Of a DNA stretch of 64,000 nt, positions 8,717-64,000 are shown piece by piece. Position 1 is the first letter of the stretch. Each line of letters starts with the position of its first letter. Source of the stretch: Cenococcum geophilum (Eukaryota); assembly GCA_050273025.1 (NCBI GenBank), contig CP158635.1:13454001-13518000 (forward strand), written 5' to 3'. The notes under the pieces were generated by a model. It saw nothing but the letters and a program-made list of their open reading frames with translations. It was not told the origin of the DNA and did no database searches. A program made the translations under genes and the position numbers.

Positions 8717-9930
8717 ATGACCCTAAAGCCCATATAACAGCCGCCGGTATTATATCTATACTCTAAAAATAACTAGCAGAAATATAAAAGTCTTTTATAG
8801 ACGCCCTTATATAAAACTAAGCTACTTTAAACTAATAATAAGCCGAATAAGAAGTATAACACTAGTAATTAATTAAGGACCTCTAAGAAGAAATCCGTAC
8901 ACTTAAGATGCCTATATTAGGGCCTTAAGACTAAATACTATTTTTAGAGATAAACACGCTGAACGTAAGCCCTAAACCTATAGTAACTGTCTACCTTAAA
9001 CTAACTACTATACTAAAACAATCTAAACAACTACTAAATCCCCTAGTATTTACTAGTAAATAATAAGAACTCTAATTATTCCTAAGCCAGCTTAAAAATA
9101 AGCTAACTAGTAACGCTAACCGTTACCTAACCGAAGCTAACCGACTTTATTACGCCCTAAGTCGACTAGGAGGAGAGGTAGCTAACTTTATTAAACCTTT
9201 TTAGCCAACCTTAGTATAAAGCCTAGTTGTACTTCTTAAAGCCTTATATAGTAACCTAAACCGCTAAGCTACTACCTAGAAAAAGATAAACTATATAGCT
9301 TAAGGAACGAAAAGTTTCCTAGTATACTTCTTTAAATTTAACCGTTATATAAGGGAAACAGGTTAGAATAACTCCGCACTAATTAATAGCCTTATTAAAT
9401 CTCTAAGCCCTAAACTAAAAACCTCCCTAATAGGCGTAGACTTACCAGGAGCCCTTAATACCTACGTAAATATTATTAATAAACGGTATAATAATATACT
9501 ACGCCTAATACTAAAACCCGCCCCCTAATATAATATAGCAACCCTATAAACGTTTACTAGGTTATTATCTTAGCCTAAGTACCCCAACGCTATAGATATT
9601 AACACTAGAACTCTAAAGTACGCCCTACTAGGGTCCCTTAAATAAGAAAGACGCATTAAGCTAGGCCTCTACTTTAAGTGCGGAAGTAAGGACTATATCT
9701 TAAAATACTATCTCGTCCCCTTACCTACGCCCTAAAACAATTTATAAACGGCTAATACTAGTAACTATTTACCGTATTAATCTTCTAGTTACCGCCCCTA
9801 ATCTTTACCTAGTTCTAGCCCCGTATTTAGTAAGCACCACTTATAAGGGTAAAGCTATAACCGACGTTTTATAGAAACCCCTTCCCGCTTATTACTAAAA
9901 GGTATATTTTAGAGTTACGTTGCTCTCTAG
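8717..9930 (+). pseudogene. gag: Gypsy gag (RIP-degraded) with CCHC zinc knuckle
   Basis: ATG at 8717; GL(C)FKCGSKD(H)I.KY(C) at ~9664-9711. End coordinate approximate. Confidence 0.75.
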
Positions 9931-12900: not shown

Positions 12901-13905
12901 ATATATTAACGCCTACTATTGCCTAGCTATTCCTAAATTATATATAGAAACTCTACAAACTCCCTAAAACAATTATCTCCGATAAAGGCAGCTAATTTAT
13001 CTTAGCATCCTAGAAAAAACTAACTACTTAACTCTGCATTAAAGCACTATTATTTACCGCGTATTACCTAAAAATAGATAGTTAAACGGAACGCGTAAAT
13101 GCTATAATGGAATAGTATATTTAGATATATACGTTATATTTATAGGATAACTAAATTAACTAGCTTGTATTTACTAAGTTTACTATAAATAATTCCGTCT
13201 CGGAAACTACGAAAGTCTCCCTATTCCTAGCTAATTACGGCTAATACCCACAAATGGGTTTTAAACCCTTTAGTAATATTCTTTACCCCGCTTATTACGC
13301 CTTATAAATTATAAAAGCAAATAAATTTATAGAAAAGATAGAGGAACTATAACAGTTCCTTACTAATAAGATAATATAGGCTTAATCTGTCTATAAAGCC
13401 GTAGTAAATAAGAAATAAACCCTAGTACCGGCCTACTAAACTAGTAATTTCGTCTAGCTAGATATAAGAAATCTAAACACAAAATAACCTATTAAAAAAC
13501 TTAATTGGAAGAACGCTGGCCCTTATTAGGTTAAGAAGGTCGTCTTCTCTTACTCCTACCGATTAAAGCTCCCTAATACGGTTAAAATCCACCCCATATT
13601 CTATACGTCAGTCCTCTATCCCACTACCTCTATATTAAACGCCCTGTCTAGATAGATATAAAACCCTCCCCTACTAGTTAAAGTAGATGGTAAGAACGAG
13701 TATTTTATTAAAAGAATTAATAATATTAAATATAATAAACGGAAACGCTAATATATATATCTTATAAAATGGAGAGGCTTTACTAAGTCCTTATAGGAAC
13801 CCGTTAACTTTATAGGACTTATATAAGCCGCAGAAGACTTTTATAAACTCTACCTAAAACTACTACAGCCCTATCTCGCAGAAGCTCGAGTTTAAAAGGG
13901 GGGTA
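9931..13905 (+). pseudogene. pol: Gypsy pol (protease, RT, RNase H, integrase, chromodomain), RIP-degraded
   Basis: KKPGGGL.F(C)(V)DY(R)ALN..TIKN(R)YPIPL at ~11144-11232; YI(D)DILIY at ~11470; AY(H)(P)..D(G)(Q)TERVN at ~13060-13100; chromodomain ~13695-13860. Confidence 0.9.
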
Positions 13906-16900
13906 CTATTATAAGACATCCCCGTAACACCTTGTATATATCTACCTATTTTTACTAACTTAGCAATTAGAGACTAACTATAAAATAGTAACCTAATAGC
14001 AATCTAATAGCAATCTAATGGCAATTCATGGCATTCTGCTATATTCTGCTAAGTTCTACTAAATTCTACTAAGTTCTGCTAGGACTATAAACTAAACCCT
14101 ATTCTGCCCTATATATATATTAACTAAGCAACTAAGTTAATAATATATACCCCTTCTTCCCGTTTTCCTACCTTCTCTCCTTACGCAACGTCTTAACTTC
14201 TTATACAGTTTATATATATAGCTTAATAATATCTACCTTACTATATATTATCGCCGCTTATACTTACTCTGTAATAGGCTAGCAGCTAAATACTATTACG
14301 GAACAGCTACACGTTAGTTAAACTACTATATATAATACCAAACATTACCTTATACAATATGGCTAGCCTATTAGGCCTTATATATAGAAGACTAGCTAGC
14401 TAGCGGCGTTAATAAAAGCTAATAATAAGGCCCTTCTTAAACTCCTACTTTACAATAGCTAGAAATATCTAGATAAAATAGACGAAATTTAGTACTGGCT
14501 TTATTATAAACATAGTCTTAATATTACTAGTACTATAATCTACTATATCTTAAATAAGAAAGGGTAAATAAGGAAGGCTATTAGGCGTATAATATAGAGC
14601 TATAACTTATAGCTAAGGGAGCTCTATTATAATAATATAAGGCGGTTTCTAGTAGATATTATAGTATTCCTTAATAAGGCTATTTTTAATAATAAAACTA
14701 GCTAGTAGATAAGAGGGTAGGCTCTAGTTAGTAAGGAAGCGTATTATAGGGGCGATCTTTAAAGAGGCGATACTTAGAGTATCTGCGTAGCTGTAATAAT
14801 TAACGGCTAGGTCTACTATTAAGCCTATAAGGGCTATTTTTGTATTAATGACTTTATTAGGTAGCTATACGGCTACCTATTTCTTATACTTTATAAGCAA
14901 TATCTAAATCGGACTATAGTAATTATAATAAATAATTTTAAGATTTACGTTAACGCGCAAATTCTAGCTGCTATTAAAGAGAAGGGCTATATCCTTTACT
15001 ATCTACTGCTATACTTACTAGATTTTAATCTAATTAAACTTATATAGGCTATTTTAAAGGTATAGATCCGTTACTAGCACCTATATACTTAAGAATTCTA
15101 CTATAATTATAGTAAGTTTCTTAAGCGAGCTATTTATAAGAGTAAGTATAATTCCTTTACCTAATAGCAGTTTTAATATGCTATAGGAGGAATATATATA
15201 GAATAGGCTAAGCTAGAGCGTTTATAATATTAAGGTTTAAGGGCTAGGTAAGTTAACTACGGCCTTTAATATCGCTATAGGCACCTAGTTAGGAAATTAT
15301 TTTATATTAAATTGCTATAGAAAACACCTCTTTTACCTAGTTTATATATCCTTTACCTCTATATAAAGCCTCCTACTAAGTCTATAAAAGCGTTTGCCGC
15401 TATAGCGGCCTTTTACTACTTATAGTATACTTTAAACTTATAGAGCTAGCCAGCTATATTACTAATAAAGCTATTAGCAGCACCTAACTCTAAAGCCCTA
15501 TAGAATTTGCGTAAATTTTTTTTTTATAATACGTAGATTATTTAGACTCTACTATTATTCTAATATAATATCCTTAAACTGCTTTAGTTTCTCTTGCATT
15601 ATAGCGTTATATATCCCCTTTAGCTTCTAGATAAATAGACGCTAAATAATATCTATATCCTCTTTATTAACTAATATAGGACTTAAGTATAGGTAATTGT
15701 TAATAGTATATATAGAGGTAGGAGGCGGCGGCGGCAAAGGGCTAACAATAGGAGTAGTAGCTTAGATTTAAGGTTAAATAGGCAGTTAAGTAGGCGGCGT
15801 TATAGGTAGCTAAAGCTACTATAGTGGCAGATAATAAGGCACTTAATTCTACGGGTACTATATATAGGAAGGGCTAGTATAGTGTTAAGAATATATAGAA
15901 AGCTGCTAATTAAAGCTATATAAAAATATTGCTATTTACTACTGCTATCTCTATATAGTAATTAGACGGTAATATTCCTCTCGCTCCTTATATTATTCTT
16001 TATAGCGCTTATCCATTTCTTCCATTTTATTCTTTGATTAACGTCTATAGGCCTCTATTTGCAATTCTTAAAGCTTAGCTATATAGTTAGTTACTATATA
16101 AAGCTTAGTTACGGCTAAAGATCTATAGGGCTATTAACCTAGGCGGCTAACTAGACTATCCGCTATAAGAGCGCGGAAAACCTTTATAGGTGGCTCCTTG
16201 TAGTAAGTGTTACTAAAGGTAATAGTATTTACCTAGGCCTTATGCTAAGCAGCGTTAATAGCGTAGTATTAACTATTAAATATATAGTAGAAGTTTTAAT
16301 AGTTACTATAGTTTATATTTATACACTTAATTTATTTCCTTAGGTAAGCTTTAAAGTTAGCAATATTCTTATATACTACTTAATGGCTTAGATTTTGCTA
16401 TAGTAATAGCTCTAAGTATAATTTTATAGGTGCGCCTTTACCTAATATAAGAATAAGACTTTTAGATTATAAGGTAACTAGTAGAAAAGATAGGATCTTG
16501 ATAGACTCCTTAATATCCTTAATAACCTTTCTCTTTTTCCTAACTTTATTAATGCCTTATAGTTAATCTTAACTTTAAAAGTTAATTAAATATTACTGTC
16601 TGTACAAGTAGAGGTTACGTGGTCATGTCTCTGATTAGTCATCCTTACGGTGACTCATCAGCCCCCTATTTAGGCACCGCGATCCTTACAATCCTCTGCG
16701 AAAGACACGAATAAATTAAAGAACCTATTACCTTATATTGCAATTACAGTACCCCCCCAGGTAATACCGACACTAATCAGTGGATATCACAGATCAGCCA
16801 GGTGTTATTACGAAGAGAGGCACCACGCGATCGCTCCTACCAAGGCCCGTCGACCACGTTGTGTTTGCTAAGGAGAACCCTTCCTATATAGGCCCTGGGA

Positions 16901-17659
16901 ACTTAAAGAACCGACTCCTCCAAGGCTTCGTTCGGTTCGCGTCCATTACGCAAAATCTACTACAAGAGACAACACGCGATCGCTCCTACTAAGGCCCGTC
17001 AATCACGTCGCGTTTACTAAGAAGAACCGACTCCTACCAAGGCTTCGTTCGGTTCGCGTCTACCACGCAAATTAATACCCAGTACGACCTCTTTACTAAG
17101 CGCCAGTACACCCAGCAGCGTCAGCAGCACCCCTACCTACACCCCTACCTACACCACGACCTACACTACGACCTAAACCACGACCTACGCCAGCCAATTA
17201 TGTTCGATATAAGAACCTAACGTCCGAACTAGGCCAACGGAATCACCCTAACCAGCAAGACTACTGCAGAGGATATTACCAATTACATTTACTTCAAAAT
17301 CAATAAGTATACTAGCTATAACTTTAAGGATAAAACCCTATGGGATTTATACCAAGAGGACTTTAATAATTTTAAGGTATAAATATTTAAGGAAGCTAAT
17401 AGGTCTGCAATTAAAAAACTTAAACAACTGCTCCAATATAATAGAGTATAGGTCTTTAACAAAAAGAGTAAGTTAGTACCACAAGCACTATATAACGTCG
17501 CTTACGAGGACAACCGTACGGAATAGTTAGATGCAGAAATTAAGCTATATATCAACAACGAAGGACCCTTTAATTCGTATGCTATCAACTATCGTCTCAA
17601 ATTACGCCCACTTGCCACCACCCCTAGGACACCTCAACCACCTGTTGCATCTATACCCT

Positions 17660-17900
17660 AGCAAGCTCCGCCCACACAAGCCTCGTCCGCGCAAGCTCCG
17701 TCCAAGCAAGCTGCTCCATCCGCACAAGCTCCGCCTGCACAAGCTCCGTCCACGCAAGCTCCGTCCACACAAGCTCCGCCCGCGCAAGCTCCGTCCAAAC
17801 AAGCTTCGTCCGCGCAATCTCCGTCTACGCAAGCTCCGCCCACGCAAGCCCCATCTACACAAGCCCCATCCGCGCAAGCTCCGCCCGTGCAAGCTCCGCT
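17660..17900 (+). repeat. 15-bp coding minisatellite (GCAAGCTCCGYCCRC)n encoding QAPPA/QAPST
   Basis: About 16 tandem units visible; this repeat produces the overlapping ORF-track calls. Confidence 0.9.
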
Positions 17901-18429
17901 AGCTTCACCCTCTCCCTTAACCAAAGCCAAGGATCCACAGCAGCCAAGCTCATACGAACCTCCGCAACCTACCTAGCGACAGTACAACTCAGCCCCAGCT
18001 GTCTCAAATAACCTTCCTCCTACGGCCAAGCTCCCCCTGCCTACAAACGTCACAGCTATCTTAAATAACCTTCCTCCTACAACTGAGCTCCACTTGCCTA
18101 TAAACGTCACAGCTACTTCTACAAACGTTACGGCTCCCTCTGCGAACGTCACGGTTCCCTCTACAAATGTTACAGCTCCCTCTACGAATACCCCTATAAC
18201 ACCTTAAACACCTATTGCATTTATATCCCAACAGCCTACCCAGCAGCAGCAGTACGACCCTTAGCAACCTAGCCGATAGCAGTATACCCTATTGCAATTT
18301 ACCCGACAACAGCAACCAGACCCAGGAGGAGGAGGAACAACAATATACAATACTTGGTTATCAGCCCTTCCACCTGTTTTCCCCTATAGACACCCCAGTA
18401 ACACCTTATACGCGTCTACCTATCTCCAC

Positions 18430-18575
18430 CACAATATCCGAATATTTACGATATCCGCAATATCCGCAATATCCGTAGCAATATTCGCAATATCCGTAGC
18501 GATATCCGCAATATCCGTAACAATATCCGCAACGTCTGCAATATCCGTAATATTCGCAATACCCAAGACATTCGC
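18430..18575 (+). repeat. 9-bp tandem repeat (ATATCCGCA)n, YPQ in the gag-like frame
   Basis: Repeated atatccgca/atatccgta units. Confidence 0.85.
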
Positions 18576-19182
18576 GATTACTGCCCTGAGCACCTGTTGA
18601 CCTATATACTTCTCCTTTATACTTTTATACCTTCTTTCCTTTTTATAAATATCGCCAGTGTCTATATAAGTAGAGGTTACGTAGTCATGTCTCTAATTAG
18701 TCATCCTTACAGTAACTCATCAGCCCCCTATTTAGGCACCGCGATCCTTACGATCCTCTGCAAAAGACATGAATAAATCAAAGAACCTGTTACCTTATAT
18801 TGCAATTGCAGTACCCCCCCAGGTGATACTGACAATTACTATTAAGGTTATGCGCCTACTAAATATTAACTACTTTAAGTAGGTAATCGCTCTATTTAAT
18901 AGAGAAGTTATTAATAGAGTAGTTAGCTTATTTGCTACGGCTAAAAATATATTATATAACTATAAGACGTTTAACCTAGGTAAAGATTTTACTACTAAGT
19001 TAACGGTTAATTTTACTTATAATGGCGTCTTTAATATTAAAGTTCTTATTATTCTAATTAACAAGATCTAAGCTATAAGGGCCCTAATTAAGCCTCTCTA
19101 GATCTAACAGAACTTTTAAATTTAGGCCTTTAAGTCTCCTAATATTATACTCCTATCTAGCCTAAAGCTTATCCCTTCTATA

Positions 19183-19407
19183 TATTAGGTAAAACCTAAG
19201 TAGATAGTTATATAGCTGTAAGGCATAGGCGACCCTAGGGCAACCTAAGGGTGACTCGCTTGTAAGGTATGTGCGCTATATATACCTAGGGAAAACCCTT
19301 CCTACCTCGCACATAGACTCCTCCTTTTCCCTTAAGGATTTGTCTCTATCTATACAATATACCTATTATTCTATTATTAGACTCCCTATCTACATCCTTA
19401 CCTTATA
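19183..19407 (+). mobile_element. Solo LTR (225 bp), distantly related to the LTRs at 38521 and 49435
   Basis: Absent from the homologous site in copy B (~20420); 5-bp TSD CTATA (19178-19182, 19408-19412); shares CCTTAAGGATTTGTCTCT with that LTR family. Confidence 0.8.
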
Positions 19408-20224
19408 CTATACTCCTTCCTTACCTTAACTTCCTCCTTAGTTTTATTATAATAGCGCCTATAATAACTATAGCCTTCTAATACCTAATATAATATAGCC
19501 TCCTTAACTTCTTTAACTTTCTTAACTTTCTTATTTTAAAACTGTATACGCTAACTATAGTCTATATATAGCTCTATATAAGTTACCCAAGTTACCTTTA
19601 TTAGTTTAGCGCGCTAGCTAGGCTTAGGTAGCCCTAGAGGAGGAGGAGTAGATAGCTTCCTACGTTTATTTATAGTAGAAGCCTTAGGAGCGACACTAGC
19701 AGTACGTAAATAAGCGTAAGTATTACTAATAAAGCGAGTACTGCTAGCTAGAGGAGCTGCTAATAGCGTTACTAGCGTTAACTTTAAGGCCTACTTTGCG
19801 GGCTATTTTGTAGGCTTCTTTACAGGCTTCTTTGCAGGTACTATAACACTAGAAAACGCGTTAAAATAGGTTAAATAGTAGGGTGACGTCGGCTTTAACT
19901 TACTAACTAGTAGTAGGGATATTATATCGATAATAAGGCGCGTTTAACGTGGGAATAGGCTATCTCACGGTTTTACACATAAGGTTAGGTGCAAAATTTA
20001 GGGATCTGCATACTAAGGATTAGTTGGTTACAAAACGGACTAGAATCCTTAGCATGCAAATCCCAAATTTTTGCGCCTAACATTACGTATAAAACCGTAA
20101 GATAGCCCATTTTCCACATTTAACGCGCCTTATTATTAACATAGCTCCCTATAATCCATTAGTTAGTAAGTTAAAGCCGACATCTCCCCGCTATTTGCCT
20201 TATCTTAACGCGTTTCCTAATATT

Positions 20225-22140
20225 ATAGTACTCACAAAGAAGCCTACGAAGAAGCCCGTAAAGTAGGCCTTAAAATTAACACTAGTAACGTTAATACCAT
20301 TAGCAGCTCCTCTAGCTAGCAGTACTCGCTCTATTAGCAATACCCACGCTTATTTATATACTGCTAGTATTATTCCTAAGGCTTCTACTATAAATAGGAA
20401 GTTAAGGTAAGGAAGGAGCATAGGAGGGACGAGCTTTATACTAGATAGAAGTATAATATTAAGAGACTTAAAGGTCTAAATTTAAAGGTTTCGTTAGATC
20501 TAAAGAGGCTCAATTTAAGCCCTTATAGTTTAGATCTTGTTAATTAGGATAATAAGAACTTTAATATTAAAGATATATTAAAAGGCTAGGCGGGAGATCT
20601 ACGTTAAAGGCGTTAAATTTATGATTAAGGTATTTATCTTAAGCGTTAAACTAAGTAGGTAACTATTAACTATCCTATCTATAGTTAATTTAGGCTCTAT
20701 ATTAATAGTTCTAAGATTACTATAAACTATTTAGTTAAGTAAAAACGGTAGTTATATAACCTAAGCCTTATTAAGGACACAATTATAAATAAGATTAACT
20801 ATTAACTTAGTAGTAAGATTTACACCTAGGTTAAATATCTTATTATTATATAATATATTTCTAGCCATAGTAAACAAGCTAACTACTCTATTAATAACTT
20901 CTCTATTAAATAGAGCGATCGCCTACTTAAAGTCGTTAATATCTAGTAGGCGTATAACCTTAACAGTAATATTTAATTAACTTTTAAAGTTAAGATTAAC
21001 TATAAGGCGTTAATAAGGTTAGGAAGGAAAAGGAAGGTTATTAAGAATATTAAGAAACTTGCTAAGATCCTATCTTCCCTATTAGTTACCTTATAGTCTA
21101 AGAGTCCTACTCTTATATTAAGCAAAGGCGCTCCTATAAAATTATGCCTAGAGCTATTACTATAGTAGAATCTAAGCCGTTAAGTAGTATATAAGGATAT
21201 TACTAACTTTTAAGCTCGCTTAGGGAAATAGATTAAGTGTATATATATAAACTATAGTAACTATTAAAACTTCTACAATATATTTAATAGTTAATACTAC
21301 GCTATTAACGCTGCTTAGTATAAGGCCTAGGCAAACGCTATTACCTCTAGCGACGCTTAATATAAGGAGCCACCTATAAAGGTCTTCTGTACTCTTATAG
21401 CAGACAATCTAATTAGCCGCTTAGGTTAACAATCTTATAAACCTTTAGCGGCAACTAAGTTTTATATGGCAACTAACTATATAGCTAAGCTTTAAGAACT
21501 ATAGATAAAGGCCTATAGACGTTAATTAAAGAATAGAGAAGAAGAGAAGAAGGAGCGCTATAATAAATAATATAAGGAATAAGAGAAGCATCGCCGTCTA
21601 ATCGCTATATAGAGATAGTAGTAACAAATAACAATATTTCTATATAGCTTTAATTAGCAGCTGCCTACGTATTCTTAATACTACGCTGGCCCTTCCTATA
21701 CACAGTATCCGCAGAATTAAGTGCCCTATCTACTACCGCAGCAGCTTTAACCACCTTTACTACTACCTACTTAACTGCCTATTTAGCCTCAAATCCGAGC
21801 TACTCCTACTATTAGCCCTCCACCGCCGCCTCCTCCTATACATAATATTAATAATTACTTATATTTAAGTCCTATATTAGTTAATAAAGAGGATATAAAT
21901 ACTATTTAGTGTCTATTTATTTAGAAGCTAGAGAGGATATATAATATTATAATATAAGAGAAACTAAAATAGTTTAGAGATATTATATTAGAATAATAGT
22001 GGAGTTTAGATAATCTACGTATTATAAAAAATAAAAACTTATATAAATTTTAGAGGGCTTTAGAGCTAGATACCGTTAATAGCTTTATTAATAATATAGC
22101 TAGTTAACTCCGTAAGTTTAAGGTATACTATAGGCAGTAA
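20225..22140 (+). pseudogene. Unknown ORF2 of copy B: Cys/His-motif protein with a helical C-terminal domain
   Basis: Starts (M)VLTKKP.KKP.K. 21232-21375 reads KC...N(C).N(H).NF(C)..F.G.(H)YA.NAA.(H).A(W)ANAI.S(G)DA....PP after RIP reversal. WSLD.LR near 21999. Confidence 0.6.
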
Positions 22141-22509
22141 AAGGCTGCTATAGCGGCAAACGCCCTTATAAACCTAGTAGGAGGCTTTACACGTATATAA
22201 AGTATATATTAACTAAGTAAAAGTTGGTGTTTTTTTATAGCAATTTAATATTAGATAATTTCCTAGTAAGTACCTATAGCAATATTAAAGGCCGTAGTTA
22301 ACTCCTCTAGCCCTTAAACCTTAACACTATGCTTAAACTACTTTAATTAACGCCGTAAACGCTCTAGCTTAGCCTATTCTATATATATTCCTTCTACGGC
22401 ATATTTAAACTACTACTAAGTAAAGAAATTGCACCTACTTTTATAAATAGCTCCATCGGGAAAATATTCGCAGGATAAGATTTAAGTAGACTTTGGTTTT
22501 CTCGTTTCG

Positions 22510-22850
22510 CGTAATTGACATGCAATTTGACCAACTCGACACGTAATTAACTAACTTAAAACGCAATTGACCAACTTGATACATTTAAAGGTTAAATAAC
22601 ACGCAGTTAACCTACTTAACAACTTTAAAAGCTAACTACATATCTCTTAACACGCAGTTAACCTACTTAGCAACTTTAAAAGCTAACTGCATATTTCTTA
22701 ATATGCAGTTAACCTACTTAACATATTTAAAAGTTAAATAATATGCAGTTAACCTATTTAACAACTTTAAAAGCTAACTACATATTCCTTAACACGCAGT
22801 TAACCACTTAGCTACTTTAAAAGGTAACTATATATTTCTTAATATGCAAT
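22510..22850 (+). repeat. ~20-bp and ~41-bp tandem repeats (TTGACCAACTTGATACGCAA type)
   Basis: Recurrent gcagttaacctacttaacaactttaaaagctaact units; also at 34200-34390. Confidence 0.75.
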
Positions 22851-22934
22851 TAAGGTAAAGTTATATACTATATATTTAACTATTATATATTATCTAATAT
22901 AATCTTATATAATCTTATATAGTTTTATTACTTA

Positions 22935-23092
22935 GAGGCTCTATATAAGGCTCTATATAAGGCTCTATATAAAGCTTTATACAAAGCTCTATATAAAGCT
23001 CTACACGAAGCTCTATACAAAGCTCTATATAAAGCTCTATATAAAGCTCTATACGAAGCTCTGCGTATAGAGGCTTTGCACGAAGCTCTGTA
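22935..23092 (+). repeat. 12-bp tandem repeat (AAAGCTCTATAT / GAAGCTCTGCAC)n
   Basis: Directly visible; related arrays at 34450-34508, 36770-36922 (reverse) and 56985-57335. Confidence 0.85.
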
Positions 23093-23177
23093 TTAGGTCC
23101 CCACTATATTCCTAATAGCCTCTATATATGCCTTTACCCTATATAGCTACCTTATTTTTTTTACCCTTCCTTTCTTA

Positions 23178-23486
23178 CGGAGGTCCCTAATAAAAGTTCT
23201 TACACCTTCCTAATTAGGAAGTTTTAAACTGATATACGCGTAAGTATAGGTGCGTATTTTATAGCCTACGTAGCGTATACTAGAGTTCTTACAGCGTATA
23301 TTAAGGCATATAAACTTTAAATATTAATTTACCAGCCTAATACTATATATAATAAAAATTCCCTATTAGATTTTTAATTTATACTTAGTAAGATAATATA
23401 TAAAAATATAAAAAGTAGTAATAAGTATTATTATTCCTAAAACTTCCTAATTAGGAAGGTGCAAGAACTTTTATTAAGGACCTCCG
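23178..23486. mobile_element. Tc1/mariner-type MITE (309 bp)
   Basis: ~48-bp TIR CGGAGGTCC(C/T)TAATAAAAGTTCTT(A/G)CACCTTCCTAATTAGGAAGTTTT; TA on both sides; absent from the homologous position (~34590) of host copy 2. Confidence 0.9.
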
Positions 23487-23944: not shown

Positions 23945-26040
23945 TTTTATTTTTATTTTTATTTTTATAGGTCTGTTGTATTATACTACGTACAATACTG
24001 CGCATGTAGCCTCTAGGCTATAGCGCTATAGTTCTATATACATAAATCCTTTCTAGGCAGCTTAATATATACTAGTAGCTATGTCCTAGTAGTTTATAAA
24101 CCCCTAAGGGTATATAGCTCCTTAATAAAATACTAAGGTACTGCAACTACTAGGGAATAAGAAAACGGTAGGAAAAACCATAGGAAATCCTAACACCTAT
24201 CCCTGTCCTTTTGCAATTTATTTCTGTCCCTTTACTCTCTAATATCTTTTTAAGAGCCTAGTAGGAGTTGCCTCCTTCTAGGGTCCTATCTGTTTTATTC
24301 TTCCATAGAATCTTCTTTACGTACTAGTTTAGCAGCTTTAAGAGTCTTGCAATCTTTACTATTAGCAAAGTGTTTTTCTTTACAACTAATGCAAAGAGGG
24401 GTGGTATGCTAGTAAGGCTTGCCTATTATTATATAGGTAGAATAGGAATAGTCTTTAGATAAATATACAGCTACACAGTATCTATAGGCCCTAGTAGAGC
24501 ACCTATCTCCTATATGGCCGAATTTTTAGCAGCTCGTACACTGCGTAGTAGGAGAGACTTCGAGGTATTTTACTACCTTAGTAGCTGTACCTGCAATTGA
24601 TATCTCTTTTTACTTAAGGATTTCTTGTCTTTTTTCTTCGTTCTCTATAGTAAAAACTATAGAGCCAAATCTGGTCTATAGATTATGTCTTTTTTCACTA
24701 AATAAGATCCATCTAGGTAGTCCTTATATCCTTATAGGATTAAAGGTCTCAATTTCTTCCTTTAGGAGCTTAGAGCCTCCTTCTCCTAGGAAAGGTAGGG
24801 TAGGAACCCCATAGGCTATAATTTGAACCCATAGTTCTAGTTTTTGTTCTCTTTAAAAGGTAAAGCAGTTATACTAGATATCCTTATATTTAACTAAGAA
24901 ATCTGCATTATACTCTTCTGTAGTTATAAGGAGAATATTTTGTTTTCCTTTTGTTCTAGCTATCGATGCTAAAACTGGCTTTTTTACTTGCAATTTTGAT
25001 GCAAATAGTTAATTGACTTTATTTCGTATAGAGAAGGTATCTAGGGGTTAGTCCTTTTCGTCTGTAATTAGGACTAGCTTTCTTTCTTATAGCTGCTTTT
25101 TCTTACTTCTAGTAAAAGTAGAAGGGGTAGGAGAAGGTAGTGATAAGGAAGGTAGTAAGAATAAAGAAGGGAGGTCCTTCTTTAGCCTCTCTATATAGGT
25201 TTCTTTAGTAGGGGCCACCTCCTTACGGAGAGCTCTTACTTCTTCGACTAGTCCTTTTAGGACTTCTTTTGTCTTTTCTTTCCCTTTTATAAAGGGATTT
25301 TCTCCTACTAGGATACTGCGTGTATAGTCCTCTAGCTGTTTAACTTGTTCTTTTTTTTCTTCTTCTTCTTCTTCTAGCCCTTTATAGGCCTGGGTTAGGC
25401 TTTCTAAGGCCTTTTATAGGTGTTGTTCTGGAGAAAGGGGAGGGAAGGATATACTAGGTATACCAGCCGTAAAAGTTATAAGTTTTATTGTCTTTTTTGC
25501 AGGTTTTTGGTTTTCTTTTTCGGTAGAAGACTGAGGATGTCCTCTTTTTCTCCTGTCTCAAATAGGCCAGGAGAAGGAGAAGGGGCAGAGAAAGTGAATG
25601 TAGACTCATTGTCACTTATTTCTATAGGAGGTTGTTGTTTTTTTTTATGCCTACTAGGCTTCGGCATCTTATAGGAAGGCTCCCTAGTTTTTACTATCCT
25701 TATACCCTTTTTCCTTACTAATCCTACTAGAAGATTTCTGGGGAGATTAGGCTAAAAGGTAGTAGAAAAACTAGCTCCTATTTTGCAGTTTTGGTATTAG
25801 TGGTAGTAGTAGTAGTTTTGGTGTTCCCGTCCGTGCCTCGCTTATAAGCTAGGGCCACCCTTAAAGAAAATTTTCTGTTGGGAAAAAGGGGTAAAACAAT
25901 AAATAAATCCACCTCTAGCTCGCTAGGTAGTAGGAATTAGGTCTTAAAAGTTGGAAAATCGATTGTTTTTGATGGTAAGATAGGTATGCGTAAGTTTTAA
26001 AGTGTGGCGCTACCTTTTGGTAAGGTTGCATGTGTAGTAA
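23945..26040 (-). mobile_element. ORF1-only non-LTR (LINE-derived) retroelement, copy 1 (~2.1 kb)
   Basis: Near-identical to 44439-46536 apart from RIP and small indels; (TAAAAA)n tail directly after the single ORF; TSD obscured by the AGGT repeat. Confidence 0.75.
23975..25667 (-). pseudogene. LINE ORF1/gag-like nucleic-acid-binding protein (MPKPSRHKKK..., C-terminal zinc knuckles), RIP-degraded
   Basis: ORF-track start at 25667; C-terminal (C).N(C)(Q)D.....(H).AA(W)KG at ~24045-24105 fits the last knuckle of fungal LINE ORF1. End approximate. Confidence 0.65.
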
Positions 26041-32400: not shown

Positions 32401-33341
32401 ATAGGACGGCCTATACCCCGTACTCGTAGTATACTAAGGGGTAGTTATAGTAGACCTTTCGGACTATATCCGAGTAAATAAATCCTTTTATACATCTAAG
32501 GTCCGCCTTTAGGCTGCTAAAGAGATCCCTAGCTAAGCAAATATTAATACTATAGAGCGCCGTAATATATTAGGACAAGTAGTAGAAAAAAAATAATAAC
32601 GGCAATATAGAAGACAAATAGGAGTTTAAGAAAATCCTTAATATATATAACGAAGACCCCTAGGGCCTAACTTATAAGATTAAATAGAAATATTATAAGG
32701 ATATAACCTAGTAGCTAGAGGAAAATCTAAAGGGTTGCAAATAAGCTATATAGCACTTTTATAAGTAATACCCTAAGAAGCTAGGACCCCCAGACTAGGC
32801 ACGAGATAAGGAAAAGTTATACTAAAGTCGCGGCCGACTACCGTATTAAAATTTATGGTAGTTAAGATGTTATAGAACTTTAACCAGCGGTTAAAGTTAT
32901 TTAATTAGCCAAATTCTTGCCAAGAAACGCCACGCGGATTAATTTAGGTGGTAGTATAGAGTTCTATTAACCTTACTTACTAAACTAACTAATTAGGATT
33001 TTCTATACCCGGTATAGAAAATCACTATTAGCTTAGTTAAGGGCGGTAAGCAGAACTAATATCTTTGCGGTAAAAAATAGGTAACCCTATACACTGCCTA
33101 TTTTTAAGTTATCTATTTAGTTTAAGGACCAAACTATCTAGAGGAGAGAAGTACTGTTACGGTACTAACCTAACGCATACTGTTTTATACTGTCTTATAC
33201 TATTTCTTACTATTAGCCGGCCCACTACTAGTAACTTAGCGGCCGGCCCTACTATTTATATATAATACCCCCTTTCCACCTTCTTCCCCTCTTTATACTA
33301 TAACGTAGTTATTTAATCTACTTCATTGCAGCACTGTAATA
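26426..33341 (+). mobile_element. Full-length Ty3/Gypsy chromovirus (6916 bp), RIP-inactivated
   Basis: 187-bp LTRs at 26426-26612 and 33155-33341; TSD GGTAA (26421-26425, 33342-33346); PPT GAGGAGAGAAG before the 3' LTR. Confidence 0.95.
26801..32860 (+). pseudogene. pol: Gypsy gag-pol remnant (gag from 26801; protease, RT, RNase H, integrase, chromodomain from ~28380)
   Basis: LVDS(G) at ~28472; KP(G)GG...(D)Y(R)GLN.VTIKN(R)Y(P)L(P)LI at ~29945-30030; AYL(D)(D)VLIF at ~30262; (H)(P)ETDG(Q)T(E)I.N at ~31946; chromodomain ~32615-32770. Confidence 0.88.
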
Positions 33342-35516: not shown

Positions 35517-35630
35517 TGCCTATAAAGCGTAGGAAATAGGTAGCCGTATAGCTACCTTATAAAGTTATTAATCTTAAAGTAGCCCTTATAGACTTAATAG
35601 TAAACCTAGTTATTAATTATTATAGCTACG

Positions 35631-37226: not shown

Positions 37227-39929
37227 TATATATAACTACTCTAAGTATCGCCTCTTTAAGAATCGCCTTAATAGCACGCCTCTTTACTAACTAGAGCTCG
37301 CCCTCTTATCTACTAGCTAGTCTTTTTTATTAAAAATAGCCTTATTAAGGAATACTATAATATCTGCTAGAAACCGCCTTATATTATTATAATAGAGCTC
37401 CCTTAACTATAAGTTATAGCCCTACGCTATACGCCTAATTCCCTTCTTTAACTACTATTTCTTTTTTAAAACACAGTGGATTATAGGATAAGTAATATTA
37501 AGATCGCGTTTATAATAGAGCTAGTACTAAATTTTATCTAGATATTTCTAACCATTGTAGAGTAGGAGCTTAAGGAGGGCTTCTTTATTAGCTCTTATTA
37601 ATGCTACTAGCTAGCTAGTCTTCCGTATATAAGGCCTAATAGGCTAGCTATATTATATAAGGCAATGTTCGGTATTATATACAGTAGTTTAACTAGCGTA
37701 TAGCTGTTCTATAATAGCATCTGGTTACTAGTCTAATTTAAGTAGACAGATTATATCCGCGCGACAAGTAGGGTTAATACGAGGCACTATAACACTAGGA
37801 AACGCGTTAAGATAGGGCAAATAGCGGGGCGACGTCGGCTTCAACTTACTGACTAATAGACGGTAGGGAGCTATGTTGACAATAAGGCGCGTTAAATGTA
37901 GAAAATGGGCTATCTCACGGTTTTACACGTGAGGTTGGGCGCAAAAATTTGGGATCTGCATGCCAAGGATTCCAGTTCGTTTTGCAACCGACTAATTCCA
38001 GTTTGTTTCGTAAACGATAAATACTTACAAAAACGGTAGTAAGAAAACTGCAGTACCGATATTTCGGTGATGACTGTAACGCGTTAACAACCTACTGTAA
38101 GTGCCCAAATATTGAACCTGGCGCGTTACCTAGTTAGAGGTCACGACGGGCTCGTGCACGGTTTGATCACGCATTATTACCAACTTCAAAAACTCACAAC
38201 TCCACCAGATATTTATAGATTTCTACCAAATTAAAATCAGAGAGTCTTTTAGTGTTACGCTTTCATTCCATTGTAATCACAGAGTCGCCGTGCCATTTGG
38301 GGGGGTTGCGCATTTGTTAAGGCCGCCTGGAGACCACCTTCTCAACCCCATCCTCTACCTCGTACTCCTCCTTAATAGAAGCCTCCTCCGGAATAGTAAA
38401 TATAACCTACTTAACCTTCTGCCTCTCCTATATTAATCTTCTCTCCGCTTTAAGCTATGCGTTAAACTCTTATATAAAGCGAGCCTTATCTATAAAGCGC
38501 TTTTTCTCTTGCTTAGTATCTGTAAGTGGATTTTGTAGACAGGGGGCTATAAGGACACAATTGTAGAACAGGATAAATTGGTAAGAGAGACGAATCCTTA
38601 AGGAGATAAGGCCTCTAGGATCGTGGAGACTATATACTACGGGCACGTGCCTCCGGTACGTGACTAGTAACTATTTAAGGGGCGTCTAGGAGTTGTCCTA
38701 AGGGCAACCTAAGGTAACCGCAATAATATCCCTCACATTGCCCCCCCTCCTCCCTCTTACGGTCAGCCCCTAATCGCTATTACCTTGCGGTAGGGAGATT
38801 ATAAGGGCTCGTCCTAGAAGGGGTTCAGAGAGATATTAGAAAGGTATTAGTATACCACTATATATTTTCTATCTATCTAACCCTTACTTTAAACTCCTAA
38901 AAAACCTTAATAAGGGAAAAATATAACTAGAGAAAAGATATAAGGATTACTAAGAACCTACTAGAGGCCTACTAGAAGCCTACTAATAACTACCTAGGCT
39001 AACTTAAGGATTTTTATACAACTTTATATCTAAGCCTTTATACCAGTCTATAATTAATTATAAGTATTATAAGCAATTTAGTGTTCCTAATATAGTTCCG
39101 TAGAACTATTTAGTATATAGCTTAATATATAGGGCCTTAGCTTGCCATTATCTTTTAACTATTAAAATATAATCTATAATCGTTTTATATAATCCTTTAC
39201 GTCACTAATATATTATTCCCACATTTACCCTTAGGCTATTAGATGCGGTTAAGGTATTAATTAGTTAATTAAGGAGACTTGTCTCCTAAGATTTAGTATA
39301 TATTATCAGGTGACGAAGTCACCTTACCTATATATATTGTTCCGCACAGCCGTGTCTAGCATTAAGCCAGTCACTCGTTTACCTTTTGCGGGTTTATGTA
39401 GCTGAGTGGTGCGAAGCTTATCACCTTATATATATACTTTTAAATCTAGTAGTCCTATGCCATATATTTGGCGTAGCTCTACTACCTAGCAAATAGGGAC
39501 ATTTCGCGATAGTAATTATAGCTATTATGCGATTATCAAGAACGTCTATAATGTTATTCTTTAATACTATAGTATCGTTTTAAGTCTAATTTAACCCATA
39601 TACGTCTTTAATTTAATATCTTAATTACCTTCCCCTAGCCGCGTAGTTAGTTTTTATAAAGAAGTAATAGTTAAATAACTTATACGCGTGTTTCCTTTTT
39701 TTTTTTAAATAGCGCTATTATAACGGAGTTATATTAGTAAGGTTGCGGCTATTTACTAGAAGGGTATTGGACGGTAAAGTATAAAGATACTTTGCTTATC
39801 GAGCTTAATCCTTTTCCTTAACACCTTACTTCCCATTATTAACCTTCGTCTAATTTAGACGTATCTTTAATATATTATTAAGATTTTCTTCTTTTTTATT
39901 ATTAATTTAATATACCTCTTTATTCTCCT

Positions 39930-61683: not shown

Positions 61684-63200
61684 ATGGCGCCCTAACAGCT
61701 GCCTACTTAATTGTTGGGCTGTACTCTAAAGCCTTCTATAAAAGCGGGCTTAATTTGCGCTTATTTCTGCTATCTTACAGCCGCCTAAGAAGAAGGTAAA
61801 GAGGAAGGCGAAGAAGGCGAAGAAGAGGCAGAAGATAATACCAGTACTATCGCCGTTACCGTTGCTGTCGCCGTCACTAGCAACGCCCGCAGAGCCTATA
61901 TCTACAGATAAGGTTAATAAGGGTAAGGATGAGAATACCTAGGAGCCTATAGAGGTGGAAGATAAGGATATAGGCTTGCCGTCGCCGCGCCCGTACGCTT
62001 TATAAGTGTTTGGAAGGCAGTTGCGAGTAGTAAAGAGGATACTCTCCCTAGCACAAGATTAGATGTTCTTAATACTAAAAATATATACTACTTTAAGCTG
62101 GATTAATGGCAGAACGAGACCGTACTTCTTCATTACTACGGAAGTTTAAGATTACTTAGCTCTAAGCTATCGCCTCTTATAAGAAGGCGCGGCAAGCTAA
62201 CTACTGGCCTTAAAATATTCGGTCAAGTAAGGATCTTAATTAAGCTCTCGCTATAATTGAGGAGTGGTATAAATGCTAGCCGTTAAAGTCTCTATCCTTA
62301 AACTTTACCTTATATTTAGTTAAGGATAAGGAGCTAGAGACTTAGGTTCTTATTATAACTCTAAGTTAGTATATAGGCGATATGCCTATAGGCAGAAGGA
62401 TAGCTATATAGCTTAACTTACGAATCCCCCTAACGTAATTGCTGGTAAGGAGGCCTCTGCCAATAGGATGCTAGTAATTGTAGATAGGTGGCCTTATATA
62501 AATATATATTACCGTAATAAAGGTAAGATATACTAGTAGAATAAGAAGTCGCCCGACTTGCCTACTACCGTAATTAACTATTATCCTATTAGTGTAGAAA
62601 ACTTCTAGTGGTGGAATAAAGAGCTCCTTTTAGGTGACTCTACTATTAAGCAGCCGTCGCAACATCTTATTATTAGCTTGGTCGGCTATAGAAAGAGAAG
62701 TTAAAAGAGCTAAAAGGAGCAGGTAGTAGAGAAGGAAGATTCTACTATATTACATATTAAGAAGCTAGCGTTAGTTATACTTATAAAGGAGCTTAAATCT
62801 ATAGGCTAAAATCCTTACCTTTCTTAATAATATCCTCCGCTATATTTAAATATCAAAGCACCCTAGAACTTAAGCCCTGTTTAGTCAGAAATAGATTTAG
62901 TTAAGCTACTTAGCTAGTTCTTTAAGTAGCTAGCTAACCAGCTAAAGTTTAATAGCGAGAGGTAGAGGGCTATTTTGGAGCCGATTAAGGATAAGTTAGT
63001 AGAGGAAGAATAGAATATTAACTCGCTAAAGTTATAGAAGCTAGGTAAAGGTATAACGTCAAATTAATAGGAGAACTACAGCTTTAAGATTGGAACGCTA
63101 TATAGAATTAGGCCTCTAATCTTAAAGTTTAAGCGCTTAAGATAGTAGCTATCTATTAATCTATTAATCTATAATATATCCTACCTCTTAGAAGTGCGCT
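61684..63200 (+). pseudogene. RIP-degraded gene of the same unknown Cys/His-motif family as ORF2 of the two-gene transposon (distant homologue)
   Basis: ATGGCGCCC at 61684; acidic tract at 61788-61840; RWP(C)...(H)(C)RNKGK.(C)(W)...(H)YP....F.WWNKEL..GDST..QPS at ~62482-62660; FF.(W)L...(W)NI(D)SL...Y(G)FKIGTL.RIR..I..FKR at ~62918-63137. Confidence 0.55.
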
Positions 63201-64000
63201 CCTATATATATACTATATACTTAACTAACAGCAAAATATAGAAAGCTCTCGAAGCTCTTAAATGTTAAGATTTGACCCTTTAGTGGCGTAGGGAGGTTAA
63301 TACCTAGTCTCCTTAATATTGTATTATATAGCTACTAGCCCTCTAATATTGGAGATAAAATAATTTAAGTAATTAGTATATTACATTTTAACATTAAAGT
63401 CCTTAACTAGCCGCTGGTTCCTTTTAATCTAAGCCTTAACGTTATTAAACGTAGCCTTAATAGGATTATAATCTGGTTAGTAGGGTAGTAGGAACTGGAG
63501 CTTAATACTATACTGCTTATAAAGTGTTAAGAATCGGCCTTCTAGTGGCGTAAGGAGGCTAGTAAAGCCAGCCTCCTTAATATTATACTATATAGCCACT
63601 AGTCTTTCCCTAAATAGATAAATTAAGCAATTAAAGTACTATATTTTAATAGGTTATAAGCCTAGATTATATAAATTAAATTAGCTAAGTTCTACTATAC
63701 TTTATAATTAACTATATAACCTACTAAAAGAATATATTTTAGAGAAGAGTCTACAGCCTTATAGCTATTTCCGCTATATACCTCTATAATATATATAAAC
63801 TAATTAAAATAAAAAGGCACGGAAAAAGGATTCTAGAAAGACTTTCTATAAAGGTAGCTAGGTACTAAGACGCTAAAAACCTAACCTTTTAAATCTCTTC
63901 CGAAACACTAAACCCCTATACTAGCCTTTCTATTTTATAAAAACAACTATATATCTAAACTTAAAATAGTTATATACTCTATTAAAATCCACTATAATAG

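What the first reader, a model, noticed from the sequence alone, without database searches (positions are those of the whole stretch)
20225..22140. Unknown accessory protein family (Cx4CxN-x3/4-C...H...W...G...PP plus helical C-terminal domain)
Seen after RIP reversal: a basic K/P-rich N-terminus, a three-Cys/one-His motif followed by W..(A/E)(I/L)..G.(A/S)....P, a Q/P/Y-rich linker, and a C-terminal block F.W...W.L..L....G....FK. Inference: a zinc-binding module plus a possibly SAM-like domain, a candidate targeting or anti-silencing factor analogous to MURB or Harbinger ORF2. I cannot assign a named family.
Basis: partly seen in the sequence, partly recalled or inferred. Interest (0 to 1): 0.7.

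Follow-up and report, generated by a model that had tools for sequence, protein, structure and literature searches.

The report
Second gene of fungal Tc1 transposon
This stretch is a mutation-riddled dead copy of a real, still unnamed protein gene that travels as a second gene inside a family of fungal cut-and-paste (Tc1-type) transposons, a class that normally carries only its transposase.

Summary
Window 20225-22200 (+) is a RIP-destroyed copy of a ~650-750-residue protein. A profile made only from the window's stop-riddled frames found intact fungal proteins. A profile made only from those intact proteins finds the window again (i-E 1.8e-30). The Cx4CxN-x4-C...H...W motif is conserved in intact homologues: C 19/19, C 18/19, N 19/19, C 19/19, H 18/18, W 20/20. 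Each Tyr or stop at these sites in the window is one RIP transition from the family residue. No Pfam or NCBIfam family matches.

On a metagenome contig the gene lies convergent to an IS630/Tc1 DD34E transposase between 205-bp inverted repeats, in a 3,656-bp element. The window shows the same layout. Aspergillus chevalieri has at least 5 near-identical loci.

AlphaFold models give a PB1-like beta-grasp, the Cys/His module, a long single helix and a SAM-like C-terminal bundle.

The best reading is a transposon-encoded, self-associating adaptor that helps its transposase. That function is inferred, not shown. I found no printed description of this gene.

The parts
20019..20229 (+). Terminal inverted repeat (about 210 bp) on the accessory-gene side of element copy B
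   Evidence: The same ~210-bp unit occurs at 37996-37786 (-) ahead of a transposase fragment, and inverted at 20042-19836 ahead of arm A's ORF. Its first bases resemble the tip of the L001 repeat.
20225..22200 (+). RIP-inactivated accessory ORF, copy B (the finding). ATA (from ATG) at 20225; the first ~60 codons are in the frame of 20225, the rest in the frame of 20227; stop TAA at 22198-22200
   Evidence: Profile hits to intact proteins, alignment A2, and an HMM of intact homologues at i-E 1.8e-30 over 20668-22161. The start lies 206 nt from the repeat tip, against 204 nt in L001.
20455..20965 (+). Region aligned to the family's N-terminal PB1-like beta-grasp domain (approximate bounds)
   Evidence: Alignment A2. 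AlphaFold model of P0029, residues 11-136, pLDDT mostly above 90. VIA Z 8.1 to the Cdc24p PB1 domain, 7.5 to the NBR1 and MAP2K5 PB1 domains.
21190..21396 (+). Cys/His module (W-x-C-x4-C-x-N-x4-C ... H-Y ... W-x-N-x-I-x2-G ... P-P). The codons now read C, Y, N, Y, Y, stop, S, P, P
   Evidence: Block scan: the starts at 21190 and 21292 are, with arm A, the top two of about 127,800 positions in the RIP-aware scan. Codons; conservation.
21400..21860 (+). Coiled-coil-type single helix, then a Q/P/Y-rich disordered linker (approximate bounds)
   Evidence: Alignment A2. In the P0029 model, helix 278-349 is followed by residues 350-400 at pLDDT below 50.
21862..22122 (+). C-terminal helical (SAM-like) domain, blocks SSPI...FFxWK, W-S-I-x-D-L-x2-M and Y-x-R-A...G-I-x-D-G...F-K
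   Evidence: Blocks C1, C2a and C2b start at 21862, 21961 and 22048. With arm A these are the top two positions for each block in the RIP-aware scan. P0018 model, pLDDT 95-98 over residues 80-170. VIA results.
22201..22453 (+). 3' remainder of copy B: the intergenic stretch and the antisense end of the transposase gene, where the copy is truncated
   Evidence: Similarity to arm A ends at 22453 / 15127. The transposase match in arm A runs to 15203.
15127..20042 (-). Arm A: inverted second copy of the same repeat plus accessory ORF. It is interrupted by an LTR element at 16597-18834 and carries about 226 extra bases at 19182-19407
   Evidence: Self-blast at 78-88% identity. Alignment with mostly transition differences. 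HMM of intact homologues at i-E 4.4e-11.
14100..15203 (+). RIP-inactivated Tc1/IS630-type transposase remnant, convergent with arm A's accessory ORF
   Evidence: tblastn with the L001 transposase, residues 52-361, E 8e-37. Pfam itself finds nothing in this RIP-mutated copy.
37244..37996 (-). Third partial copy, transposase side: repeat 37996-37786, then a transposase fragment
61684..63200 (+).
   Evidence: Colinear in-frame block hits at 62447, 62576, 62867 and 62972. The codons at all three Cys sites and the His site read Tyr, each one transition away, while W, G and P are kept. Not found by the HMMs or BLAST.
63417..63500 (-). Remnant of a DDE_3 transposase, convergent with the third accessory ORF
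   Evidence: tblastn at 61% identity over 28 residues, E 8e-6. Pfam DDE_3 E 0.00099, below the curated cut-off.

Best explanation
The finding is a RIP-killed copy of the second gene of a two-gene Tc1/IS630-type DNA transposon. An intact element is about 3.7 kb. It has ~205-bp terminal inverted repeats. Just inside one repeat starts a DD34E transposase gene. Just inside the other starts this accessory gene, and the two genes converge.

The accessory protein is 640-756 residues long. It has a basic disordered N-terminus, a PB1-like beta-grasp domain and an S/P-rich linker. Next come a small module with three invariant Cys and one invariant His (a probable zinc site), a ~70-residue single helix and a P/Q-rich linker. 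It ends in a SAM-like helical domain and a short conserved GGF tail.

Shown: the gene is real, it is conserved, it is multi-copy, and it is physically linked to the transposase inside the repeats.

Inferred: it works as a self-associating, nucleus-directed adaptor for the element's own transposition. For example, it could bring transposase and the two long repeats together, or tether the complex to chromatin. I put about 0.8 on the identity and about 0.3 on this particular mechanism.
For: Reality of the gene:
- The window-only profile finds intact proteins, and the intact-only HMM finds the window at 1.8e-30.
- All five family blocks score highest in arms A and B, out of about 127,800 positions, in the RIP-aware scan.

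Conservation:
- C 19/19, C 18/19, N 19/19, C 19/19, H 18/18, W 20/20.
- P0029 has only three cysteines in total, exactly the motif ones.

Linkage to the transposase:
- L001 holds the gene at 10001-12046 (+), facing a gene at 13228-12077 (-). That gene matches Pfam DDE_3 (1.8e-27), HTH_32 and HTH_23 and NCBIfam IS630 (9.3e-36, above the cut-off).
- Both genes lie between inverted repeats 9798-10002 and 13250-13453, which are 97.6% complementary.
- A second contig, L002, shares the element from exactly the same first base, with an unrelated flank.
- In the window, a transposase remnant at 14100-15203 converges on arm A. The same ~210-bp repeat precedes the accessory ORF (copies A and B) and a transposase fragment (37996-37244).
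- The distant third copy also faces a DDE_3 remnant.

Mobility:
- A. chevalieri proteins at >=90% identity carry 9 locus tags: three full-length loci and two loci annotated as pairs of split models, so at least 5 loci. The tags suggest at least three chromosomes.
- Six homologues lie on contigs of 3,457-3,672 bp, the size of the element.
- RIP-mutated copies exist in other sources, for example P0009 and P0030.

Long co-residence: between the window element and L001 the transposase is 29% identical over 308 residues and the accessory protein 24% over 462.

Folds:
- P0029 model, mean pLDDT 81.8, with PB1 matches at Z 8.1, 7.5 and 7.5.
- C-terminal domain model, with SAM and HhH matches at Z 6.1-5.0.
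- The folded domains are neutral to acidic, while the disordered N-terminus and linkers are basic. This fits protein-protein modules better than a classical DNA-binding domain.
Against: - No experiment or expression data bears on function.
- The fold matches are all in the range that the tool calls common (Z at most 8.1). Foldseek found nothing at E<=0.001 for either model.
- The Cys/His module was never searched on its own against solved structures, and zinc binding is inferred from conservation only.
- Linkage to the transposase was seen directly at only one intact element (L001) plus the degraded window copies. For the named genome proteins I could not see the neighbouring genes.
- A TA target duplication, typical of Tc1/mariner, was not seen. 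The left flanks end in GG and GT, and no right flank was available.
- The L001 copies of both genes carry an in-frame stop.
Confidence: 0.8

Rival explanations
1. Passenger or captured host gene. A Tc1-type element picked up a cellular gene, which now rides along without any role in transposition.
For: Tc1/mariner elements are known to capture other genes, such as Fanzor1, nucleases and methyltransferases (PMC3627910, passages read). Atlas structure look-alikes of both modules exist in other fungal 'hypothetical protein' clusters, which may be cellular (leads only).
Against: The gene is present in three deeply diverged element lineages: the window's A/B copies, the window's third copy, and L001. 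Its divergence matches that of the transposase. It starts at the same distance from the repeat tip in the window and in L001 (206 against 204 nt). Long intact ORFs with invariant motifs persist in several genera. No single-copy host orthologue was seen among the hits.
Confidence: 0.12
2. Counter-defence factor. The protein protects the element from genome defence (RIP, quelling, meiotic silencing or heterochromatin) and does not take part in the transposition reaction.
For: The polymer-type modules (PB1-like, coiled coil, SAM-like) and the basic tails would also suit a chromatin-associated protein. The element lives in fungi with active RIP.
Against: No similarity to any known silencing suppressor was found. 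The copies in this window were thoroughly destroyed by RIP. Nothing tested here separates this reading from the helper model.
Confidence: 0.07
3. Not a gene here: the motif is a chance pattern in AT-rich RIP-mutated DNA, or an ordinary segmental duplication of host sequence.
For: Every frame is full of stops, and after a two-copy deRIP the frame still has 67 stops in 807 codons. Pfam finds nothing in six frames.
Against: HMM matches at 1e-30 to a profile that holds no window sequence. Twenty database hits from the window-only profile. The top two ranks for all five blocks in the RIP-aware scan.
Confidence: 0.01

Closest known systems
Canonical fungal Tc1-like (DD34E, Pfam DDE_3 / IS630-type) transposons
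   Same: The transposase has HTH domains and a DDE_3 core, with 34 residues between the second D and the E by my count on the L001 translation. The element has terminal inverted repeats, is multi-copy, and has a patchy host range.
   Different: Those elements are described as a transposase between inverted repeats (PMC5751038 and PMC7325037, passages read). This lineage has a second, larger gene, convergent to the transposase, and ~205-bp repeats. A TA duplication was not confirmed.
Ciliate TBE and Tec elements (Tc1/mariner relatives with three ORFs)
   Same: They are members of the same superfamily that carry extra ORFs, including a zinc-finger protein in TBE. Tec also has long repeats of ~700 bp and one ORF on the complementary strand (PMC7325037, passage read).
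   Different: The hosts differ (ciliates) and the ORF sets differ (a tyrosine recombinase in Tec).
Fanzor1-carrying Mariner elements (Bao and Jurka 2013, PMC3627910)
   Same: A Tc1/mariner-type transposase plus a large second protein with a cysteine motif inside one element. Examples occur in fungi (passages read).
   Different: Fanzor is defined by D...[TS][TS]xx-C4 zinc finger...RD. Zero of 17 family members have even one CxxC or that motif. No credible Pfam match at E<=1 in 9 members. The models show a beta-grasp, a long helix and helical bundles, not a RuvC-type nuclease.
Accessory proteins of other DNA transposons: the Harbinger Myb-like protein, MuDR MURB, En/Spm TnpA (recalled, not from a call)
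   Same: Each is a non-catalytic second protein encoded beside the transposase.
   Different: The superfamily is different. No Myb/SANT or other named domain was found. No sequence or fold link was seen.
PB1 and SAM domain proteins (for example Cdc24p, NBR1 and MAP2K5 PB1; tankyrase SAM)
   Same: These are the best structural matches of the N-terminal domain (Z 8.1, rmsd 3.6 A, 94 of 98 residues) and the C-terminal domain (Z 6.1, rmsd 2.8 A, 62 of 63 residues). Both domain types are known as self-association modules (recalled).
   Different: No Pfam PB1 or SAM match at E<=1. Sequence identity is 11-19%. The Z values are in the range where only a common arrangement may be shared.

Membership tests
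Unnamed accessory-protein family (type member: Rasamsonia emersonii T310_3744, P0026) | Match to a profile of intact members over most of the length | tested here: met
   The HMM of A3 (12 intact proteins, no window sequence) matches window 20668-22161 at i-E 1.8e-30, profile positions 214-688 of 709. Arm A matches at 4.4e-11.
Unnamed accessory-protein family (type member: Rasamsonia emersonii T310_3744, P0026) | C-x4-C-x-N-x4-C ... H ... W motif | tested here: met
   Family counts are 19/19, 18/19, 19/19, 19/19, 18/18 and 20/20. The window codons are TGT, TAT, AAC, TAC, TAC and TAG, each identical to or one C>T / G>A step from the family residue.
Unnamed accessory-protein family: third window copy 61684-63200 | Profile match | tested here: inconclusive
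   No HMM or BLAST match. Four colinear in-frame blocks rank 28th, 4th, 7th and 5th of about 127,800 positions, and the chain score is third after arms A and B. I read it as a distant member.
IS630/Tc1/mariner transposon (the element as a whole) | DDE transposase of the IS630/DDE_3 type | tested here: met
   L001: DDE_3 1.8e-27 and NCBIfam IS630 at 123.8 bits against a cut-off of 100. Window 14265-15203 matches the L001 transposase at E 8e-37.
IS630/Tc1/mariner transposon (the element as a whole) | Terminal inverted repeats bounding the element | tested here: met
   L001 arms of 205 nt, 97.6% complementary. L002 shares the same outer end with a different flank. The window repeat is shared by three element ends.
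IS630/Tc1/mariner transposon (the element as a whole) | TA target-site duplication | tested here: inconclusive
   The left flanks end in GG (L001) and GT (L002). The right flank is missing because the contig ends at the repeat tip.
Fanzor / TnpB | C4 zinc finger within D...[TS][TS]xx-C4...RD (PMC3627910) | tested here: not met
   0 of 17 family proteins have a CxxC or the motif. No credible Pfam match at E<=1 in 9 proteins.
PB1 domain (Pfam PF00564) | PB1 fold and profile match | tested here: inconclusive
   VIA Z 8.1, 7.5 and 7.5 to the Cdc24p, NBR1 and MAP2K5 PB1 domains, with eight PB1 entries among 50 rows. Foldseek best E 5.5e-3, to superantigen beta-grasp domains. No Pfam PB1 hit at E<=1. 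The basic and acidic PB1 interaction motifs were not examined.
SAM domain (Pfam PF00536 / PF07647) | Five-helix SAM fold and profile match | tested here: inconclusive
   The VIA top hit is the tankyrase-1 SAM domain (Z 6.1), with further SAM entries at Z 4.5-5.2, but HhH domains score equally (Z 6.0). Foldseek found nothing below E 0.4. No Pfam SAM hit at E<=1. The Atlas lists a SAM cluster at feature score 0.82, which is a lead only.
Zinc-binding module | Four ligands placed to hold one zinc ion | not testable with these tools
   Only conservation was seen, together with the placement of C, C, C and H on a loop and a beta-hairpin that I estimate from the P0029 model's secondary structure.

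The most novel reading that the evidence does not exclude
A widespread fungal lineage of Tc1/IS630 transposons depends on its own polymer-forming protein, built from a PB1-like domain, a coiled coil, a SAM-like domain and a CCCH zinc module. This protein would build a nuclear scaffold on the long inverted repeats that pairs the element's ends for the transposase, or shields the element from genome defence. That would be a two-component mechanism so far unknown in a superfamily taken as the textbook case of a single self-sufficient transposase.
Probability: 0.22. Interest if true: 0.8.

Novelty: new variant of a known kind. Interest (0 to 1): 0.6.

Why it matters
Tc1/mariner elements are the standard example of a transposon that needs only its transposase, and they are the most often horizontally transferred transposons in fungi (bioRxiv 10.1101/2025.06.16.659975, passages read). 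A lineage that has kept a second, larger, non-enzymatic gene through deep divergence raises a clear question: what does a Tc1-type element gain from a helper? Possible answers are end pairing on long repeats, nuclear import, chromatin targeting or counter-defence.

The protein family has no Pfam or NCBIfam model and is annotated everywhere as hypothetical. It carries a compact, strictly conserved Cys/His module. Intact, near-identical copies in Aspergillus chevalieri make the question directly testable.

For annotation, recognising the family lets 2-kb stretches of RIP-mutated 'unknown repeat' in fungal AT-rich blocks be assigned to a defined element.

Tried and rejected
- Pfam on six X-masked frames of 14001-23002: no hit.
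- No whole genome is held for this window.
- A two-copy deRIP did not open any frame; 64-106 stops remain per frame. I dropped stop counting as a test of coding.
- blastn, tblastn, a purine/pyrimidine-only alignment and both HMMs all failed to link 61684-63200 to the finding. The lenient scoring was uninformative, because the controls scored alike.
- Profile against PDB sequences: nothing below E 0.4. The L001 transposase against PDB sequences: nothing at E<=1.
- Foldseek against the PDB for both models: no match at E<=0.001.
- The VIA list for the full model was filled by coiled coils, so the Cys/His module remains untested against solved folds.
- Complex prediction, accessory residues 150-658 against the two halves of the L001 transposase: no verdict (score 0.09, mark 0.34; the alignment was not used).
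- The look-up of sequencing runs: no RNA holder listed and names are coded. I did not follow it up, and no reads were laid.
- Sequences upstream of arm A's transposase (13850-14130, 8250-8530) do not resemble the repeat, so that end of copy A is not intact.
- Literature: searches found no description of this gene or of a fungal two-gene Tc1 element of this type. The Styx element (bioRxiv 10.1101/2023.03.29.534637) and Gnawa are different elements.
The scan was redone with residue numbers.
Full report
**What is in the window.**
The whole 64-kb window is AT-rich (GC 0.28-0.43). It has no ORF longer than 127 codons in any frame. Its dinucleotide bias is that of repeat-induced point mutation (RIP): TpA/ApT is 1.76 and (CpA+TpG)/(ApC+GpT) is 0.45 for the window, and 1.75 and 0.37 for 20031-22453. 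The thresholds I compare these with are recalled, not from a call.

The finding lies in the right arm of a large inverted duplication. Arm B is 20031-22453 (+) and arm A is 15127-20030 (-). They are about 80-83% identical. Among their differences, 345 are transitions and 129 are transversions. The three + frames of 20225-22143 carry 48, 102 and 59 stops in 639 codons. A two-copy deRIP consensus still has 64-106 stops per frame. Pfam finds nothing in six X-masked frames. From the window alone, coding cannot be shown.

**The gene is real.**
I searched that profile against 1.84 billion representative proteins. Twenty proteins scored E<=0.001. Some are short fragments that look like less mutated copies of the same element. 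Others are whole proteins of 429-752 residues (P0011, P0015, P0019, P0020).

Further searches added named proteins, all annotated as hypothetical:
- Rasamsonia emersonii T310_3744 (P0026)
- Aspergillus keveii
- A. granulosus (two proteins)
- A. chevalieri
- A. cristatus
- Blastomyces percursus
- Lipomyces orientalis
- L. kononenkoae

An HMM built from 12 intact proteins, with no window sequence in it, matches window 20668-22161 in one frame at i-E 1.8e-30. It matches arm A at 4.4e-11.

There is a basic N-terminus and the motif W-x-C-x4-C-x-N-x4-C, followed by 7-9 residues and then H-Y. Further on come W-x-N-x-I-x2-G-E-A-T and P-P. A Q/E/R-rich helix and a P/Q-rich linker follow. The C-terminal block reads SSPI...FFxWK...W-S-I-x-D-L-x2-M...Y-x-R-A...G-I-x-D-G...F-K, and a GGF tail closes the protein.

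In the 25-row alignment the motif residues are C 19/19, C 18/19, N 19/19, C 19/19, H 18/18 and W 20/20. The single exception is a Tyr in P0030. In the window these codons read TGT, TAT, AAC, TAC, TAC and TAG. Each is identical to, or one C>T / G>A step from, the family residue. One member, P0029, has only three cysteines in all, exactly the motif ones.

**The third version.**
Region 61684-63200 is not found by blastn, tblastn, a transition-blind alignment or either HMM. I made position-specific score tables for five ungapped family blocks. I scanned every position of both strands, once plainly and once allowing each codon its possible pre-RIP ancestors.

In the RIP-aware scan, arms A and B take the top two places for all five blocks. 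In the third region, four blocks fall in one frame and in the right order, at 62447, 62576, 62867 and 62972. Their plain-scan ranks are 28, 4, 7 and 5 of about 127,800 positions. The chained score is third in the window after arms A and B, in both modes. The fifth block (C2b) is not found there. I read the region as a distant, RIP-mutated member. The claim rests on this custom scan.

**What the gene belongs to.**
A metagenome contig (L001) carries a copy 83% identical to the Rasamsonia protein. There the gene (10001-12046, +) faces a gene on the other strand (13228-12077). That gene matches Pfam DDE_3 (1.8e-27), HTH_32 and HTH_23. It also matches the NCBIfam IS630 transposase model (9.3e-36, 123.8 bits against a cut-off of 100). 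By my count on the translation, 34 residues separate the second Asp from the Glu.

Both genes lie between inverted repeats of 205 nt that are 97.6% complementary (9798-10002 and 13250-13453). A second contig (L002) shares the element from exactly the same first base but has an unrelated flank. These are therefore two insertions of one 3,656-bp element. Both L001 genes carry one in-frame stop. Six homologues sit on contigs of 3,457-3,672 bp, the size of the element.

The window has the same plan. A transposase remnant at 14100-15203 (+) converges on arm A's ORF (E 8e-37 to the L001 transposase). A ~210-bp unit precedes the accessory ORF in arms A and B. The same unit precedes a transposase fragment at 37996-37244. 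The ORF start (ATA at 20225) is 206 nt from the tip of that unit, against 204 nt in L001. The third version also faces a DDE_3 remnant at 63500-63417 (that Pfam score is below the cut-off).

In A. chevalieri, proteins at >=90% identity carry 9 locus tags. Three are full-length loci, and two further loci are annotated as pairs of split models, so there are at least 5 loci. By tag number they lie on at least three chromosomes.

Between the window element and L001, the transposase is 29% identical over 308 residues. The accessory protein is 24% identical over 462 residues. This fits a long shared history better than a recent capture.

**What the protein looks like.**
The AlphaFold model of P0029 has mean pLDDT 81.8. 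It shows:
- an alpha/beta domain at residues 11-136;
- a disordered S/P-rich stretch;
- a module at residues 175-276, made of a long helix, a beta-hairpin and two helices, which holds the Cys/His motif;
- one 70-residue helix at residues 278-349;
- a disordered P/Q-rich stretch;
- a helical bundle at residues 401-490.

The N-terminal domain best matches PB1 domains: Cdc24p at Z 8.1 (rmsd 3.6 A, 94 residues), and NBR1 and MAP2K5 at Z 7.5. Eight PB1 entries are among the 50 rows. Foldseek gives only weak beta-grasp rows.

The C-terminal domain was modelled alone from P0018, with pLDDT 95-98. It best matches the tankyrase-1 SAM domain (Z 6.1, rmsd 2.8 A, 62 of 63 residues). The Mus81 HhH domain and the polymerase X 8-kDa domain score the same (Z 6.0), and further SAM domains score Z 4.5-5.2. 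Foldseek finds nothing. All these values lie in the range that the tool says may reflect only a common arrangement.

The ESM Atlas gives leads only. The Cys/His module resembles models in fungal 'hypothetical' clusters from Mucoromycota, Basidiomycota and Ascomycota (TM 0.65-0.70). In one of these clusters, 18% of members carry Pfam SAM_1.

The folded domains are neutral to acidic. The N-terminus and the linkers are basic.

The protein is not a Fanzor. None of 17 members has a CxxC or the Fanzor motif, and no credible Pfam match was found.

**How it most likely works.**
Shown: this is a conserved, multi-copy gene that sits inside the repeats of a Tc1/IS630 element.

Inferred: with a PB1-like domain, a long helix and a SAM-like domain, all fold types known for self-association (recalled), plus basic disordered tails and a probable zinc module, it looks like a multivalent adaptor and not an enzyme. 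My best guess is that it helps the element's own transposition. It could pair the two long repeats with the transposase, or carry or tether the complex in the nucleus.

I give the identity 0.8 and this mechanism about 0.3. The rivals are a passenger gene (0.12), a counter-defence factor (0.07) and chance (0.01).

**Comparison and novelty.**
Canonical Tc1/mariner elements are described as a transposase between inverted repeats (PMC5751038 and PMC7325037, passages read). Known multi-gene relatives are the ciliate TBE and Tec elements (PMC7325037) and the Mariner elements that carry Fanzor1, nucleases or methyltransferases (PMC3627910, passages read). Other superfamilies have helper proteins, such as the Harbinger Myb-like protein, MURB and TnpA (recalled).

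Four literature searches found no description of this gene or of this two-gene fungal element. Repbase and Dfam could not be consulted.

Earlier notes of this scan report the same kind of element in other genomes. They agree with this report but are not independent evidence. One of them says that similar two-gene elements are already described in fungi. The only printed cases I could find are the Fanzor carriers.

I rate the finding a new variant of a known kind.

Noticed in passing
window 16597-18834: A 2.24-kb element is inserted in arm A only. It has 176-bp direct terminal repeats (92% identical) that begin with TG and end with CA, and a 5-bp target duplication (ATTAC). Arm B keeps the empty site. 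It is much less RIP-mutated than its surroundings (GC 0.47, RIP index 0.84). It has P/A/S-rich low-complexity frames and no Pfam hit. It looks like a non-autonomous LTR element.
   Followed up: partly
window 19667-20396 (centre about 20030): The two element copies abut head to head and form a near-perfect palindrome centre. Arm B's repeat starts at 20019 and arm A's inverted repeat at 20042, so the first ~24 bases overlap and one copy lacks its tip. The origin is not resolved. It could be nested insertion at an element end or a fold-back duplication after a break.
   Followed up: partly
window 7542-8239 and 60951-61647: A ~700-bp repeat (84% identical, same orientation, less RIP-mutated) stands at 60951-61647, 36 nt upstream of the third accessory ORF. 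Its other copy, at 7542-8239, is about 260 nt upstream of a transposase 5' fragment (8499-8756). That is the pattern expected of a long inverted repeat of the third element type. Its first bases do not resemble the tip of the A/B repeat.
   Followed up: partly
window 22454-23180, 33300-36900: Arrays of tandem and dispersed short repeats give frames such as LYKALYKA and LKANYISLNTQLTYL. They follow arm B directly. They also adjoin a transposase 3' fragment at 33911-34140.
   Followed up: no
window 2105-4506 and 5012-7441; 23945-26038 and 44442-46523: Two further repeat pairs of 2.1-2.4 kb (91% and 88% identical) were not examined.
   Followed up: no
family proteins (alignment A2), C-terminal end; window about 22170-22200: A short conserved GGGF / GGF motif lies within the last ~5-15 residues of many members and is kept in the window as GGF. 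It may be a docking motif.
   Followed up: no
proteins P0031, P0036 (Lipomyces) and the Eurotiomycete members: The family occurs in Lipomyces yeasts as well as in Aspergillus, Rasamsonia and Blastomyces, at 39-48% identity. This patchy range would fit horizontal transfer. A preprint reports a Tc1/Mariner transfer involving Lipomyces starkeyi.
   Followed up: no
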